Part shown: in pieces, positions 14,951 to 58,146 of the stretch
Layout: each line of letters opens with the position of its first letter
Position numbering within the stretch: position 1 is the first letter of the stretch
Source: Malacoraja senta
Taxonomy: Eukaryota
Assembly: GCA_038087875.1 (NCBI GenBank)
Contig: CM075987.1
Span: 18,292,001-18,356,000, forward strand
DNA length: 64,000 nucleotides
Direction of reading: 5' to 3'
Made by a program: the position numbers and the translations under genes
The notes under the pieces: generated by a model
Databases searched by the model: none
Told to the model about the DNA's origin: nothing
The model's input: only the letters and a program-made list of their open reading frames with translations

Positions 14951-15327
14951 GTGAGTGAAAAAAATAAAAGCTAACTGACATCAGGGAAGATTTACTCCAA
15001 TCTCCATTTGTATCGAAGTATAACTGTATTCTTTTTTGTGATGTTGACTCTATTCTATTGACTTGGAGCAGATTTATATTGTATGTAAAGAACATAGAGC
15101 GACACAGGAACAGGTCCTTAGGCCCATAATGTCCAAGCTAAACATGATGCCATGATAAATTAATCTTATCTGCCTACACGTAATGTATATCCCACCATTC
15201 CCTGGATATCAATGTGCTTATCAATAAGACACATAAACACCACTATCGTATCTGCCTGTATCACCTTCCCTGGTTAGGAGAATTGATTTGAAAGATGTGA
15301 TCACTTCATGCATTTTCAGTGGTTGAT

Positions 15328-15465
15328 CTTCTTCTGGCGTATGGCGTGCACAGCCTAAAGTTGTAGGTCAACTTGTTCTATTTGATCTATTTGTTTGTGC
15401 ACGTCGGGTTGATTGCATTAGTCGAAACAGGGTGGACCACGTGAAGGTTGCAATCTTCCACCCCA
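15328..15465 (-). mobile_element. 138-bp non-autonomous retroelement (Ingi/Vingi-like) with 5' HDV-like ribozyme
   Basis: 10-bp TSD agtggttgat (15318-15327, 15466-15475). The 3' end reads GCCATACGCCAGAAGAAG. The 5' end coincides with the ribozyme G1. Family assignment is inference. Confidence 0.75.
15411..15464 (-). ncRNA. Minimal HDV-like self-cleaving ribozyme (54 nt)
   Basis: Minus strand reads GGGGUGG AA GAUUGCA ACC UUCACGU GGU CCACCCU G U UUCG A C UAA UGCAAUC. This gives P1 (7 bp, G.U at the cleavage site), P2 (7 bp perfect), P3 (3 bp), L3 UUCACGU and J4/2 CUAA, with a vestigial P4. Confidence 0.85.
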
Positions 15466-16951
15466 AGTGGTTGATATTGGACCACGTCAGTCTGATCTGA
15501 GCAGCGGCTAAGACATGTTACAGTCATACTGTGCATAAAATGTAGCCTATAACCCATTCCTCACAAGCACAAGACAGTCTCTAGGCTAAGAGAGACCAGG
15601 CAATAATGCACTTTCACAACAGGACTATAAAACATAAAGTCAGAAGATGAATTTTGATTTACCCGATATGGAATATTCACACACTTCCAGCAGGAGACTA
15701 ATTGACCCATTCAGTCCGTGCTGGCTCCCACAGCAATTCCATCAATCCCATTCTCCATTTAATCTCTCCACCCCCCCCCCCTCCCCCCCCCCCCCTGCCC
15801 ACAATTCTTCCTTCTGATTTTCCAGCTATATTAGGAATAATATACAATTCTTCCACCAACTGGAACATTTCTAACAGGTGGGAGTGAGCCACAGCACCCA
15901 GAGGAAACCCACGCAATCACACGGAGAGCATGCAAACGCCACACAGACAGCACCAAAGTCCTGGATAACAGGAGATATGAGGCAGCACCTCTACCTGTTG
16001 CATCACTGTGCCACCCACAAACTGATGAGTTTAATAGCATACTATTCATGCTCTCCATGTGATCAATGTAATTAATTATCCTGGATTATGATTTAAATAT
16101 TTTATGGCAGATCAAACTCCCACTTGCAATTACATTGCATATTTTCAGCATTATTTAAAATAAATAATGAACCCTATCTAAATATTGATCTGATTGATTC
16201 ACTTTAACTCTTATTTAAGCCAAATTTACCTTTTGCTGATAAATTCCTGAACATGTGTTTCGGCATTCGCCAAAAGGTGTTTTCCATTGTGGGAAAATAT
16301 TGAACCAACTACATATATATTTTCGAACTCCACATCCTGCCATCGTGTAGCTGGGATTTCCTCCATATTTGACAGACGATTCACAGTAAACATCTCCCTT
16401 CATTCCTGGAATAAATTTAACATGGGCAAGAATTTCTTCTTGCATGTGTGTGGCTGGAAGATGGTCACTATTTCTTATAATTATTTTAATTATGATTACA
16501 TTACAAATGTGGATGAAGCCTCAAATGAATTATACTTTTGTAGGAAGTGGAGAACTTGCTGTTTTATGTTCAGGAAATGTACTTTATCCAATCTCAAAAT
16601 ACTAAACCTTCATTGTACCAATTTCCATGCTAATATAAACTCAATGTGTAGAGTCTCAGACTCGAAACATGAACTGTTTTTCTTTCCACAGATGCATCTA
16701 ATCTTCTGGGTGTTTCAAGCATTTGATGGGGTTTTTCCCGATTTCTAACATTTGCAGTTAGTTATTCCTGATTTTTCACTTAAAGTGATTTGTTCATCAG
16801 CCTAATATTTAAAAAAAAATAACTGATGAAACTACAGAAGGTCTGCCTGTCTTTTTGTCATTAATTAATGCAGGTTTGAAGTGTCTGTAAATCGTTCACT
16901 CAAATATGCCTAAATTGAACAAACACAGAAGTTTTGTAAAAAATCTAGTTA

Positions 16952-43378: not shown

Positions 43379-43559
43379 AGCCTGTGGAATCCAGCATTTG
43401 GAGAGAGCAGGAGACAATCTGTCTTTTTTCAACTCTCTCTACTTCTGCATTGTCACCTTCTCTACAGTTGGATTTGGGGATGTGACTCCACAGATCTGGC
43501 CTTCGCAACTGCTTGTGGTCATCATGATATGCGTTGCTTTGGTGGTATTGCCTCTCCAG
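43379..43559 (+). CDS. kcnt1: kcnt1 pore/S6 exon: [60 protein letters not shown]
   Basis: tattccag|A ... CAG|gtatgt; 181 nt; K+ selectivity filter TVGFGD. Confidence 0.97.
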
Positions 43560-55650: not shown

Positions 55651-55809
<159 letters not shown>

Positions 55810-56151
55810 TAAGTCACATGTTTGCATGTCTTCCATTACGAGGGTATAAATTTATCAGGAGAATATGCTTTAAATGATGTCGACTGAGTTGCACACGGAT
55901 TTATTTTGAATTACTGGTTGAATACATTGGTTGACTCAGATCCAAGTTCAACACAAGGAACAGACCCTCTGGCCTACAATGTTTGTGCCAAGTACAATGC
56001 CAAAATAAACTATTCTCACTTGAAGTTCTACATGAACCCTTTTTACTGATTTGTTAACTCTGCCCATTAGAATTTGATCCATGTACTTTGTACATATCTT
56101 TGAATCAAGATTTACTATTTTAAACCGGTTTTACCTTGATGGTGCTCTCCA

Positions 56152-56728
56152 TCATAAGGTCATAAGAGATGGTTTAGAATTAGACCATTTGACCTATCAA
56201 GTCTATTCCGCCATTCAATCATGGCTAATCTCTCCCTCTCCTAACCCCATTCTCTCCCCATAACCACTGACACCCGTACTAATCAAGAATATCTATCTCT
56301 GCATTAAAAATATCCATTGACACAGCCTCCAAAGCCTTCTGTGGCAAAGAATTTCACAGATTCACCATCCTCTGACTAAAGAAATTCGTCTTCATCTCCT
56401 TCCTAAAGGAACGTCCTTTAATTCTGAGGCTATGACCTCTAGTCCTAGACTCTCCCACTAGTGGAAACATCCTCTACTAGTGGATACATCGACTCTATCC
56501 AAGCCTTTCACTATTCGGTAAGTTTCAATGAGGTCCCCCCTCATTTGTCTAAGCTCCAGCGAGTACAGGCCCAGTGCCATCAAATGCTCATCATGTGCTA
56601 ACCCATTCATTGCTGGGATCATTCTTGTAAACCACCTCTGGACCCTCTCCAGAGCCAGCACATCCTTCCTCAGATATGGTGCCCAAAATTACTCACAATA
56701 CTCCAAATGCGGCCTGCACAGCGTCTAA
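56152..56728 (-). mobile_element. CR1 3' fragment
   Basis: LALERVQRWFTRMIP..LGLYSLE..RGDLIETY. Confidence 0.85.
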
Positions 56729-57950
56729 TACCCATGGTCATTGTAACTTAGCACCATCTGTGCAACTTAAATCAGTTTTTTTTAATGTATTAATGAAAAA
56801 GCATGGTAAGTTGTGGAATTAAATGTAAAAATTTTAATGTAAAAATTTCAATGTGGAAGGGAGTTAATTTAAATTGGTATTTTTTGATACATTGTTAGAG
56901 CTTATGTAAAAGCATGACAATTGTGGAATTTAATGTAAAAAATTCAATGTAGACAGGAGTGGTCATTTTTAAAAGTGAATCATTTTTAGGTGCAACATCT
57001 CACTGGCTTTTTTCATTCTATATGACTGGAATAAAAAATCAGACATTGAAAGAAAATCTCCCAACTTGTTTTGAGACACAAGAAAACAAACAAACTGTGG
57101 TAGTATTTCAATGAACGAACCCTGGGATGAACTAACAATACAATCCACCAGTTAACTATTGTGTTGTGAATTAAAATCAGTTTGTTATCGCAGTGACCAC
57201 TAAGATAAATTATGAAATACTTATATCATCAGCCTGTCTAAAATAAGCTTAGGATGACAGGAAAATTGAAATTGGCTTGGTGTTTTTGAACTTGCAACTT
57301 GAGGCAGTGATTTCTCAACATGTCCCCAACAAGAATTGCTCCCTTCCAAGAGTACGCCTGTGACATTGTATTGCTTATTTGCTTTAATCAGTAGCGCCCT
57401 TGTATAACATGGTGGAAACCAGTAACACTGCATAAGGGGAATCAGCACAAGTCTATATGTCAGTGCGTTGTTCACAAAAACTAATCCATGATGACGTTGC
57501 AAGTTTGTACATCATGGGAAACTGAAATGTTATTTGCCATTTTTATATAGCAGATACAGCAAAGAAAATTGCAGCATAGGAGATTTTTGTTCATTGATGT
57601 GTACAAATGTATTTATAATTGAATCCTTGAAACATGGCCTCTGGATAAATGAGCTTCTCGGACCCTGTTCCTTTCCCATCAATTCATTCCTTGCAACACT
57701 GAGCAAAGAACACACAAGTTGCTGAATATGCTTTGCATTGCCAGATGCCACCAGATAGTGGGTGGTGACGCGGGATCGCAGAGAAATACTCATGATAATC
57801 TTGAATTCTCCTACCGTTGGGGAGTGGAAATCGCTAAACAGTGTTCTTGACCTTGGGTTTCACCTTGTTCGGTTTGCATAGATCTCATGAGGCTTCTGTG
57901 CTTCGTGAAGAATTTTAAACTAATAAAATAATGCATCTCCATGGTTACAG

Positions 57951-58100
57951 GGAAGGACAACAGTCCCCAGAACAGTGGCAGAGGATGTATGGTCGGTGCT
58001 CGGGGAATGAGGTCTATCATATTAAACTCACCGACAGCAAGTTCTTTGGAGAATATGAAGGGAAGAGTTTCACCTACGCTTCATTCCATGCCCACAAAAA
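57951..58100 (+). CDS. kcnt1: kcnt1 exon: [50 protein letters not shown]
   Basis: ggttacag|G ... AA|gtaagt; 150 nt. Confidence 0.96.
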
Positions 58101-58146
58101 GTAAGTGGTGTGCGTGTTCACGTTAATAGTCCTGTTCACAATGCAG

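What the first reader, a model, noticed from the sequence alone, without database searches (positions are those of the whole stretch)
15318..15475. 138-bp retroposon capped by an intact 54-nt minimal HDV-like ribozyme
Seen: the minus strand of 15411-15464 folds with no mismatches into the HDV/CPEB3 nested double pseudoknot. P1 is GGGGUGG/CCACCCU with a G.U pair at the cleavage site, P2 is GAUUGCA/UGCAAUC, P3 is ACC/GGU, and L3 is UUCACGU. The putative catalytic C is at 15421, in CUAA. P4 is reduced to U-UUCG-A. The element has a 10-bp TSD, its 5' end falls within 1 nt of the predicted cleavage site, and it ends in GCCATACGCCAGAAGAAG. Established: Ingi/L1Tc, R2 and some RTE retrotransposons use 5' HDV-like ribozymes to release themselves from read-through transcripts. 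L3 UUCACGU with a single P1.1 pair is the CPEB3 arrangement. Nearly P4-less forms are best known from microbial and phage (theta) ribozymes. Inference: this is a ribozyme-headed, Vingi/Ingi-mobilised SINE-like family with no Pol III head. It lies antisense to kcnt1, so it would not cut the pre-mRNA.
Basis: partly seen in the sequence, partly recalled or inferred. Interest (0 to 1): 0.88.

Follow-up and report, generated by a model that had tools for sequence, protein, structure and literature searches.

The report
Ribozyme-headed mini-retroposon of a Vingi-like LINE
A 137-base jumping element, present in thousands of copies in this vertebrate genome, starts with a very small hepatitis-delta-type self-cutting RNA motif that it inherited from its parent LINE, whose sister lineages carry the same motif in the form known from the mammalian CPEB3 gene.

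Summary
On the minus strand, 15464-15411 is a 54-nt HDV-like double pseudoknot. It heads a 137-nt element (15464-15328) flanked by a 10-bp target-site duplication.

The element is a high-copy retroposon. Its first 28 nt occur 3,896 times in the 1.94-Gb genome. Copies have 8-14 bp duplications and variable (GAA)n tails, and their 5' ends lie at G1 or within a few nt of it.

It is not a Pol III SINE. It is an internal-deletion derivative of a single-ORF APE+RT LINE of roughly 3.3-3.7 kb. It keeps the LINE's first 80 nt and last 44 nt, including the ORF stop codon.

Four sister LINE lineages in the same genome carry the same fold at their 5' ends. P1, P2 and P3 covary: 13 of 19 pairs show double changes, and 93% of cells pair against 36-46% in slid controls. 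A model built without the window's lineage finds 15464-15426 at E about 3e-6.

One sister lineage scores 57-64 bits on Rfam's CPEB3_ribozyme model (cut-off 35). Its head resembles published Vingi 5' ends.

Self-cleavage, transcription and the Vingi clade assignment remain untested. I rate this a new variant of a known kind: a P4-less, CPEB3-related ribozyme heading a vertebrate non-autonomous LINE.

The parts
15466..15475 (-). Upstream copy of the 10-bp target-site duplication (ATCAACCACT on the minus strand)
   Evidence: exact 10-bp direct repeat with 15318-15327.
15465..15465 (-). One extra T between the duplication and G1, probably added at the 5' junction without a template
   Evidence: In 8 of the 28 copies with a duplication, 1-3 extra nt lie there.
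15411..15464 (-). 54-nt HDV-like ribozyme fold with G1 at 15464. P1 is 15464-15458 with 15435-15429. P2 is 15455-15449 with 15417-15411. P3 is 15448-15446 with 15438-15436. L3 is 15445-15439. The P1.1 partner GU is 15428-15427. The linker UUCGA, in place of P4, is 15426-15422. UAA is 15420-15418.
   Evidence: sequence. (covariation across five LINE lineages). (model built without this lineage, 31.3 bits, E 2.9e-6). (weak RF02682 match at exactly these ends).
15421..15421 (-). Putative catalytic cytosine (ribozyme position 44) in J4/2
   Evidence: Invariant column C44 in alignment A1 of five lineages. Its catalytic role is inferred from the HDV family, not tested.
15385..15410 (-). Spacer derived from the parent LINE's 5' UTR (element positions 55-80)
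   Evidence: LINE copies L073, L094 and L093 match the element up to position 80-81 and then continue into LINE-specific 5' UTR and ORF. L135 and L133 do likewise.
15372..15384 (-). 13-nt linker at the deletion junction (element positions 81-93), origin unknown
   Evidence: It matches neither the LINE 5' region nor the 3' region.
15328..15371 (-). 3' module taken from the parent LINE. It holds the last codons of the ORF (...LQL), the stop codon TAG at 15357-15355, a roughly 20-nt 3' UTR and the (GAA)n tail GAAGAAG at 15334-15328.
   Evidence: Element 95-137 matches the 3' end of LINE copy L091 at 88%. The ORF ends ...AWMSTLDLQL in L034 and L044. Tail length varies between copies.
15318..15327 (-). 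Downstream copy of the 10-bp target-site duplication

Best explanation
This is a 137-nt 'bipartite' non-autonomous LINE: an internal-deletion derivative with no ORF and no Pol III promoter. It keeps only the first 80 nt and the last 44 nt of a single-ORF APE+RT LINE of the Vingi type.

Inferred mechanism:
- The element is transcribed, probably as part of longer read-through or Pol II transcripts.
- The 54-nt HDV-like fold cuts the RNA immediately 5' of G1, so each RNA starts exactly at the element's first base.
- The LINE protein, supplied in trans, recognises the 3' module (ORF end, short 3' UTR and GAA repeats).
- That protein copies the RNA into a nicked target by target-primed reverse transcription. 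Because the RNA is so short, copying usually runs to the 5' end.

What is shown:
- the fold and its conservation by compensatory changes;
- copy number, target-site duplications and 5' ends at G1;
- both ends shared with the LINE.

What is inferred: self-cleavage, the polymerase that transcribes it, trans-mobilisation, and any further role of the fold such as 5' protection or translation start.

The window copy has an intact fold and lies on the strand opposite the KCNT1-like gene, so it cannot cut that pre-mRNA.
For: Fold:
- Every P1, P2 and P3 pair forms in the window copy.
- Across five LINE lineages of this genome (8 sequences), 92.8% of cells pair, against 36-46% when partners are slid.
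- 13 of 19 pairs show changes on both sides, and 0 of 500 shuffles reach the observed covariation score.
- C44, A47 and U48 are invariant.
- A model built from the other four lineages finds 15464-15426 at E 2.9e-6.
- Sister lineage 3 scores 64.2 and 57.1 bits on RF00622 CPEB3_ribozyme, cut-off 35. In the genome, 39 places pass that cut-off.

Retroposon:
- There are 3,896 exact 5' 28-mers and 2,475 exact 3' 30-mers, with reversed controls at 0.
- 28 of 30 copies have 8-14 bp target-site duplications. In 20 of those 28 the duplication abuts or overlaps G1; in 8 there are 1-3 extra nt.
- I sampled 20 copies by their 3' end only, all lacking an exact 5' 28-mer. 18 start at -1 to G2 and 2 are 5'-truncated.
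- 5'-truncated copies with their own duplications exist: L042, L056, L059.

Parent LINE:
- The 3' identity is shown, and the 5' identity.
- L135 carries LINE-type 5' UTR behind a head that starts at G1.
- The closest database protein, P0001, is 1019 aa with APE and RT domains and no RNase H.

Other organisms: contigs from four coded organisms cover the element and stop at 15327/8 and 15464/5, with differing flanks.

Against: - No cleavage assay was possible, and no run on record as RNA was available.
- Rfam gives the window copy only 17.5 bits on RF02682 (cut-off 44) and nothing on CPEB3 at E up to 10.
- Nested folding energy is ordinary, z -0.39.
- P4 is missing, which could slow or abolish catalysis in this lineage.
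- The helices used for the covariation count were first located by a script that picks the best complements. The MAFFT alignment it was counted on is independent of that script and gap-free over the paired columns.
- No uninterrupted ORF of the partner lineage was seen among the 45 candidates scored.
- 5' ends at G1 would also arise from transcription starting at G1.
- The Vingi assignment rests on architecture and on a by-eye likeness of a sister lineage's head to published Vingi 5' ends, not on an RT tree.
Confidence: 0.8

Rival explanations
1. The conserved 5' fold is a structural module only, such as a protein-binding site, a 5' protection cap or part of an internal Pol II promoter. It does not cleave. 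The sharp 5' ends come from transcription starting at G1.
For: - 5' ends at G1 are equally expected from a fixed transcription start.
- In L1Tc the same 77 nt act as both promoter and ribozyme (abstracts of PMC3383444 and PMC3185411 in the listing).
- P4 is absent, and no cleavage data exist.
Against: - The covarying architecture is exactly the HDV-type nested double pseudoknot, with an invariant C in J4/2 and G1.U at the predicted cut site.
- A sister lineage passes Rfam's model of a proven ribozyme.
- The element is 137 nt with no recognisable Pol III head, so read-through transcription plus processing is the simpler route.
Confidence: 0.1
2. The fold was a ribozyme in the ancestral LINE, but the P4-less 54-nt form of this lineage is catalytically dead or very slow. 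The element spreads by other means, for example chance 5' ends or template switching.
For: - P4 is replaced by a 5-nt linker only in this lineage. Lineages 2-5 keep a P4 region of about 25-45 nt.
- Linker variants such as G42>A are common among copies, so that part is unconstrained.
Against: - The lineage with the minimal head is the most successful one, with 3,896 exact heads, and its copies nearly always start at G1.
- Between subfamilies and organisms only three ribozyme positions vary at 10% or more. All three are structure-neutral: A/G opposite U5, one linker base, and the N of C-N-A-A. The other 83 nt hold 10 variable sites and one indel.
- Natural HDV-like ribozymes without P4 are reported (PMC10879173, introduction passage).
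Confidence: 0.08
3. It is a chance HDV-like fit in an ordinary SINE or repeat.
For: The Rfam score of the window copy is below threshold, and its folding energy is ordinary.
Against: The covariation across lineages, the hit from a model built without this lineage, and the CPEB3-model hits in a sister lineage all argue against chance.
Confidence: 0.02

Closest known systems
NARTc / RIME, non-autonomous derivatives of L1Tc / Ingi in trypanosomes, with the L1TcRz HDV-like ribozyme (Pr77)
   Same: They are internally deleted, ORF-less derivatives that keep the LINE's 5' end with an HDV-like ribozyme and its 3' end. The parent clade is the sister of Vingi. Sources: PMC3383444 and PMC4035085 abstracts; PMC5786205 section 23.
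   Different: - The host here is a vertebrate, not a kinetoplastid.
- The ribozyme is 54 nt without P4, against 77 nt.
- The tail is (GAA)n, not poly(A).
- No promoter function is shown here.
- The parent lacks RNase H.
Vingi-derived non-autonomous families (Vingi-1_EE derivatives in hedgehog; Vingi parts in SINE2-1_ACar and SINE2-1_AMi)
   Same: They are bipartite derivatives of a compact single-ORF LINE that use its 5' and 3' ends (PMC5786205, passages and section 23). The Vingi 5' ends printed in that paper's supplement show the same layout, GGGG..-P2-GCG-UUCACGU-CGC-..CCCU-GU-P4-C-GAA-P2' (my reading by eye).
   Different: - That paper does not list Vingi among ribozyme-bearing clades.
- The window's lineage has different P1, P2 and P3 sequences and no P4.
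- Membership of the present LINE in Vingi was not tested by phylogeny.
- Kojima 2011 itself was not held.
Mammalian CPEB3 ribozyme (Rfam RF00622)
   Same: It has the same fold, the same L3 UUCACGU, and C-N-A-A before the 3' strand of P2. Sister lineage 3 of this genome scores 57-64 bits on the CPEB3 model and shares long stretches of primary sequence with its consensus.
   Different: - CPEB3 is a single-copy intronic ribozyme of mammals. Here the motif heads multicopy LINEs.
- The window copy itself does not match the CPEB3 model and lacks P4.
R2 SIDEs, short internally deleted R2 elements of Drosophila
   Same: They are non-autonomous and have a 5' HDV-like ribozyme plus the 3' protein-binding end (PMC3414825 abstract).
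   Different: R2 is site-specific (28S rDNA), uses a restriction-like endonuclease and is co-transcribed with rRNA. The present family is dispersed, and its target-site duplications have varied sequences.
Minimal HDV-like ribozymes (drz-Mtgn) and theta ribozymes of gut phages
   Same: They have no P4 domain and are of similar size (PMC10879173 introduction passage).
   Different: Those come from metagenomes and phages and sit next to tRNAs. This one is in a vertebrate retroposon and is visibly derived from P4-bearing relatives in the same genome.

Membership tests
HDV-like self-cleaving ribozymes | Nested double pseudoknot: P1 and P3 nested, P2 crossing them, P1.1 between L3 and the bases after P1 | tested here: met
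   The window copy pairs 7/7 in P1, 7/7 in P2 and 3/3 in P3. Covariation gives 13 of 19 pairs with double changes, 92.8% of cells paired and 0 of 500 shuffles reaching the score. P1.1 is weak: its C-G pair holds in 7 of 8 sequences, and the second pair in 4 of 8.
HDV-like self-cleaving ribozymes | Cleavage site directly 5' of G1, with a G1.U wobble closing P1 | tested here: met
   G1.U occurs in 6 of 8 aligned sequences, including the window copy; the other 2 have G-C. Genomic 5' ends lie at G1 or within a few nt. The cut itself was not observed.
HDV-like self-cleaving ribozymes | Conserved catalytic cytosine in J4/2 | tested here: met
   C44 (window 15421) is invariant in A1, followed by N-A-A in 7 of 8 sequences.
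HDV-like self-cleaving ribozymes | Mg2+-dependent self-scission | not testable with these tools
   This needs an in vitro transcription and cleavage assay.
HDV-like self-cleaving ribozymes | Match to a curated Rfam HDV-type model above its gathering score | tested here: not met
   The window copy scores only 17.5 bits on RF02682, cut-off 44. Sister lineage 3 passes RF00622.
CPEB3 ribozyme (RF00622) | Score at or above 35 bits on the Rfam model | tested here: not met
   The window copy has no match at E up to 10. The feature is met by sister-lineage heads L102 (64.2 bits) and L099 (57.1 bits), and by 39 places in the genome.
Classical SINE (Pol III head) | 5' head derived from tRNA, 7SL, 5S or snRNA, with an internal Pol III promoter | tested here: not met
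   ARAGORN finds no tRNA. No Rfam tRNA, 5S, 7SL or snRNA match overlaps the element at E up to 10. The head is the LINE's own 5' end.
Bipartite non-autonomous LINE (internal-deletion derivative) | 5' end equals the 5' end of an autonomous LINE | tested here: met
   - Element 11-81, 9-81 and 44-81 match LINE copies L073, L094 and L093 at 96-100%. All three continue into LINE 5' UTR and ORF.
- L135 has the same LINE-type 5' UTR behind a head starting at G1.
Bipartite non-autonomous LINE (internal-deletion derivative) | 3' end equals the 3' end of the same LINE, with no ORF and with target-site duplications | tested here: met
   Element 95-137 matches the L091 3' end at 88%. The ORF stop codon lies inside the element. 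Duplications are present in 28 of 30 copies.
Vingi clade of non-LTR retrotransposons | Compact single ORF with APE and RT domains and no RNase H | tested here: met
   P0001, 60% identical to the LINE's RT/C-terminal part, is 1019 aa with Exo_endo_phos and RVT_1 and no RNase H. The description of Vingi comes from PMC13708176 passages. RTE elements share this feature, so it is not decisive.
Vingi clade of non-LTR retrotransposons | RT phylogeny placing it with Vingi reference elements, sister to Ingi | not tested
   No named reference RT sequences were available to the tools. The only link is the by-eye likeness of lineage 3's head to the Repbase Vingi 5' ends printed in a supplement.

The most novel reading that the evidence does not exclude
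The mammalian CPEB3 ribozyme is not a one-off. It is the exapted 5' head of a Vingi-type LINE that landed in a CPEB3 intron. The same ribozyme family is still the working head of several LINE lineages in this vertebrate genome. One lineage has shrunk it naturally to a 54-nt, P4-less form. That form would be the first eukaryotic 'minimal' HDV-like ribozyme, and it defines the 5' end of a retroposon with thousands of copies.
Probability: 0.5. Interest if true: 0.8.

Novelty: new variant of a known kind. Interest (0 to 1): 0.66.

Why it matters
HDV-like ribozymes at LINE 5' ends, and ORF-less LINE derivatives that keep them, are known from insects and trypanosomes. Three points would be new if confirmed.

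[quoted passage not shown] Here Vingi-like LINEs of a vertebrate carry them, with strong covariation.
- **Minimal form.** One lineage shows a natural P4-less 54-nt version beside P4-bearing relatives. This is a ready-made series for asking what P4 contributes.
- **CPEB3 origin.** A sister lineage passes the CPEB3 ribozyme model. That makes the origin of this mammalian ribozyme, which has been linked to memory, directly testable as a retrotransposon exaptation.

A practical note: a 2026 review describes Vingi 5' and 3' UTRs being used in gene-writing constructs. Knowing that the 5' UTR is a self-cleaving fold bears on how such templates behave.

Tried and rejected
- **RNA evidence.** The look-up of sequencing runs listed no holder on record as RNA. 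The four runs laid are contigs of guessed kind. They show presence and boundaries only, not expression, 5' ends or cleavage.
- **Whole LINE copies.** As a result no complete partner LINE was read end to end, and its length of roughly 3.3-3.7 kb is an estimate from match coordinates.
- **5'-truncated or rearranged LINE copies.** L091 turned out to be a 5'-truncated LINE. L092 and L073 are 5'-inverted copies.
- **Intron test for KCNT1.** I did not pursue it, so intronic location is unproven.
- **Nested folding energy.** It was uninformative, z -0.39.
- **Papers not held.** Kojima 2011 and Ruminski 2011 were not held. What I say of them comes from citations in PMC5786205 or is recalled.
- **Literature searches.**
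  - Vingi plus ribozyme gave 6 papers. The three alpha-synuclein papers were judged irrelevant from the listing alone. PMC4494074 was not opened. Of the two I read passages of (PMC5786205, PMC13708176), neither assigns a ribozyme to Vingi or mentions CPEB3 with it.
  - A search for the CPEB3 ribozyme with retrotransposon and origin listed 18 papers. I read passages of 3 and found no such origin proposed.
  - A broader term search returned nothing relevant.
  - Subscription journals are not covered.
- **Earlier findings of this scan.** Nothing was found for this genome or sequence, and the word search gave only unrelated ribozyme notes.
- **Pol III SINE reading.** Rejected.
Full report
**1. The observation**

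- P1 is GGGGUGG/CCACCCU, closed by G1.U.
- J1/2 is AA.
- P2 is GAUUGCA/UGCAAUC.
- P3 is ACC/GGU, and L3 is UUCACGU.
- After P1 come GU, a 5-nt linker UUCGA where P4 would be, then C (15421), UAA and the 3' strand of P2.

The element runs from G1 (15464) to the GAAGAAG tail (15328). It is flanked by an exact 10-bp duplication, 15475-15466 and 15327-15318, with one extra T at 15465.

Rfam gives only a sub-threshold match at exactly these ends: RF02682 at 17.5 bits against a cut-off of 44. It finds no tRNA, 5S or 7SL, and ARAGORN finds no tRNA. Nested folding energy is ordinary, z -0.39, which says little about a pseudoknot.

**2. A high-copy retroposon**

The window lies in an unnamed 1.94-Gb vertebrate assembly.

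A DNA search gave 2,547 first-look candidates.
- 40 were scored, and all matched at 93-100% identity.
- 35 of the 39 non-self matches begin at query positions 10-13, where G1 is position 12.

Exact-pattern counts are whole-genome figures.
- The first 28 nt (R at position 8) occur 3,896 times.
- The last 30 nt before the tail occur 2,475 times.
- The reversed control patterns occur 0 times.

In the 30 best copies:
- 28 have 8-14 bp target-site duplications of unrelated sequence, and the (GAA)n tail varies in length.
- In 20 of those 28 the duplication abuts or overlaps G1. In 8 there are 1-3 extra nt.

That sample favours full-length copies, so I built a 3'-anchored one.
- Comparing the two printed lists by eye, 27 of the 72 3' matches in the first 57 Mb of contig 1 have an exact 5' 28-mer at the expected distance.
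- I fetched the first 20 of the other 45. Of these, 18 begin at -1 to G2 with point mutations or small deletions in the head, and 2 are 5'-truncated. L130 and L131 are one duplicated locus.
- Severely truncated copies with their own duplications also exist: L042, L056, L059.

Contigs of four coded organisms cover the element and stop at 15327/8 and 15464/5 with heterogeneous flanks. Related genomes therefore share the family and its boundaries. Those runs are of guessed kind and say nothing about expression.

**3. The parent LINE**

A pattern that required the 3' tail but excluded the element's body led to copies whose upstream sequence is a LINE ORF end.
- The ORF ends ...CDCGHPDQTIPH..NDCPLR...AWMSTLDLQL.
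- Its stop codon TAG lies inside the element's CTTTAGG, followed by about 20 nt and the GAA repeats.

This C-terminal peptide has at least 3,953 candidate places in the genome.

The closest database protein, P0001, is 60% identical and 1019 aa long, on a 3.3-kb contig. It has Exo_endo_phos and RVT_1 domains and no RNase H.

At the 5' side, several LINE copies match the element up to position 80-81 and then continue into LINE-specific 5' UTR and the ORF.
- L073 matches from position 11.
- L094 matches from position 9.
- L093 matches from position 44.

Only 25 places hold that LINE-specific 5' UTR with up to 1 mismatch. I read 7 further copies.
- L135 has the complete head starting at G1.
- L133 starts at G2.
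- Two start at position 5.
- Three are joined to inverted ORF pieces.

The element is thus LINE positions 1-80, a 13-nt linker, and the LINE's last 44 nt. L033 is an independent deletion derivative of the same LINE.

Many LINE copies carry a 5' inversion of the twin-priming type. No uninterrupted partner-lineage ORF was among the candidates scored.

**4. Is the fold real?**

A search with P0001 showed several related LINE lineages in the genome. I fetched short stretches just upstream of their ORFs.

Four further lineages carry the same layout at their 5' ends with different helices.

| Lineage | P1 | P2 | P3 |
|---|---|---|---|
| 2 | GGGGGAC/GCCCCCC | GGAUCA/UGAUCC | GCG/CGC |
| 3 | GGGGAUC/GAUCCCU | GGUAGAA/UUCUACC | GCG/CGC |
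| 4 | GGAAGAG/CUCUUCU | GUCGGCA/UGCCGAU | ACC/GGU |
| 5 | GGAGGAG/CUCCUCU | AAAGACA/UGUCUUU | GCC/GGC |

All keep L3 as U-Y-Y-N-C-G-Y. A C precedes N-A-A and the 3' strand of P2 in all but lineage 4, which reads C-A-C-A. The P4 region is about 25-45 nt in these four, against 5 nt in the window's lineage.

MAFFT aligned eight sequences without gaps over all paired columns. On that alignment:
- 92.8% of cells pair, against 36-46% with partners slid.
- 13 of 19 pairs change on both sides.
- 0 of 500 shuffles reach the covariation score.
- P1.1 is the weak helix, with 69% of cells paired.

A caveat: I first located the helices with a best-complement script.

As an independent test I built a covariance model from lineages 2-5 only. 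It finds 15464-15426 at 31.3 bits, E 2.9e-6; E-values from this short calibration are rough. The next hit in the window has E 1.3.

Across organisms and subfamilies only three ribozyme positions vary at 10% or more, and all are structure-neutral. The remaining 83 nt hold ten such sites and an indel.

**5. The CPEB3 link**

Lineage 3 heads score 64.2 and 57.1 bits on Rfam RF00622, 'Mammalian CPEB3 ribozyme', whose cut-off is 35. They share long runs of primary sequence with its consensus.

Genome-wide, 51 of the 59 candidates scored match at E up to 0.001, and 39 pass the cut-off. Several of these coincide with LINE copies found independently by protein search. Lineage 2 scores 17-20 bits. Lineages 1, 4 and 5 are not recognised.

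The supplement of Kojima 2018 (PMC5786205; passages read) prints the 5' ends of Repbase Vingi-2_Gav, Vingi-4_Crp and Vingi-1_BF, plus positions 395-451 of Vingi-2_SPur. By eye they have the same layout and the same L3. They are very close to both lineage 3 and the CPEB3 consensus.

[quoted passage not shown] I found no paper in the searched library that assigns an HDV-like ribozyme to Vingi or derives CPEB3's from a LINE. Subscription journals are not covered, and Kojima 2011 and Ruminski 2011 were not held.

**6. Mechanism**

Most likely the element RNA is released from longer transcripts by self-cleavage before G1. It is then copied by the LINE protein, which recognises the shared 3' module. 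Because the RNA is short, reverse transcription nearly always reaches the 5' end.

The fold, copy number, junctions and shared ends are shown. Cleavage, the polymerase, trans-mobilisation and any extra role of the fold are inferred. One such role, 5' protection, is described for R2 templates in PMC13708176.

The main rivals are a non-cleaving structural or promoter module, and a head crippled by loss of P4.

**7. Context**

KCNT1-like exons lie on the + strand.
- The pore motif TVGFGD is at 43,464.
- BK_channel_a exons lie at 55,699-55,809 and 57,931-58,119. The second aligns to residues 533-590 of human KCNT1.

The ribozyme strand is therefore antisense to that gene. Whether 15.4 kb lies inside an intron was not shown.

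**8. Verdict**

This is a new variant of a known kind. Its most novel permitted reading is that it belongs to the living LINE family from which the CPEB3 ribozyme descends.

Noticed in passing
L102:22-105 (-), L099:81-164 (+); genome places listed: The 5' heads of a sister LINE lineage pass Rfam's 'Mammalian CPEB3 ribozyme' model at 57-64 bits (cut-off 35). In this genome 39 places pass the cut-off. This suggests the CPEB3 ribozyme descends from a LINE head.
   Followed up: partly
L097 (minus strand, about 245-345) and L100 (minus strand, whole locus): Some lineage 3 LINE copies begin with 4-6 tandem copies of a 26-nt unit: J1/2, P2, P3, L3, P3' and the first four bases of the P1 3' strand. 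This looks like slippage between the two GATC words of P1.
   Followed up: no
L073, L087, L092, L132, L134, L136: Many partner-LINE copies have their 5' part inverted next to the 3' part, a twin-priming-like arrangement. L134, L136 and L087 share the same inversion junction at three different places in the genome.
   Followed up: no
window 15478-15487 and 15433-15442: A 10-nt direct repeat (ACGTGGTCCA on the minus strand) occurs inside the ribozyme and again in the flank just upstream of the target-site duplication. It may be chance.
   Followed up: no
L035, L038, L044, L049 and other places: A recurrent sequence type shares only the last 30 nt or so (…CTTTAGGCTGTGCACGCCATACGCAAGAAG) behind a different body ending in GTGGGACAGGCCC. 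It may be a second non-autonomous family using the same LINE tail.
   Followed up: no
L033 (minus strand, upstream of the tail): This is an independent internal-deletion derivative. It has the complete head plus about 17 nt of LINE-specific 5' UTR, joined directly to the 3' tail.
   Followed up: partly
window 43464, 55651-55812, 57919-58104 (+): These are exons of a KCNT1-like potassium channel: the pore motif TVGFGD and the BK_channel_a domain. One exon aligns to residues 533-590 of human KCNT1.
   Followed up: partly
L038:143-730, L044:824-1273, window 56458-56688 (-): Fragments of an abundant CR1/L2-like LINE (…SLDTFKRELD…, …ETYRIVKGLDRVD…) lie in many flanks and in the window.
   Followed up: no
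L028/L029 and L130/L131: These pairs of loci are identical including their flanks. They are segmental duplications or haplotigs, so copy counts are slightly inflated.
   Followed up: no
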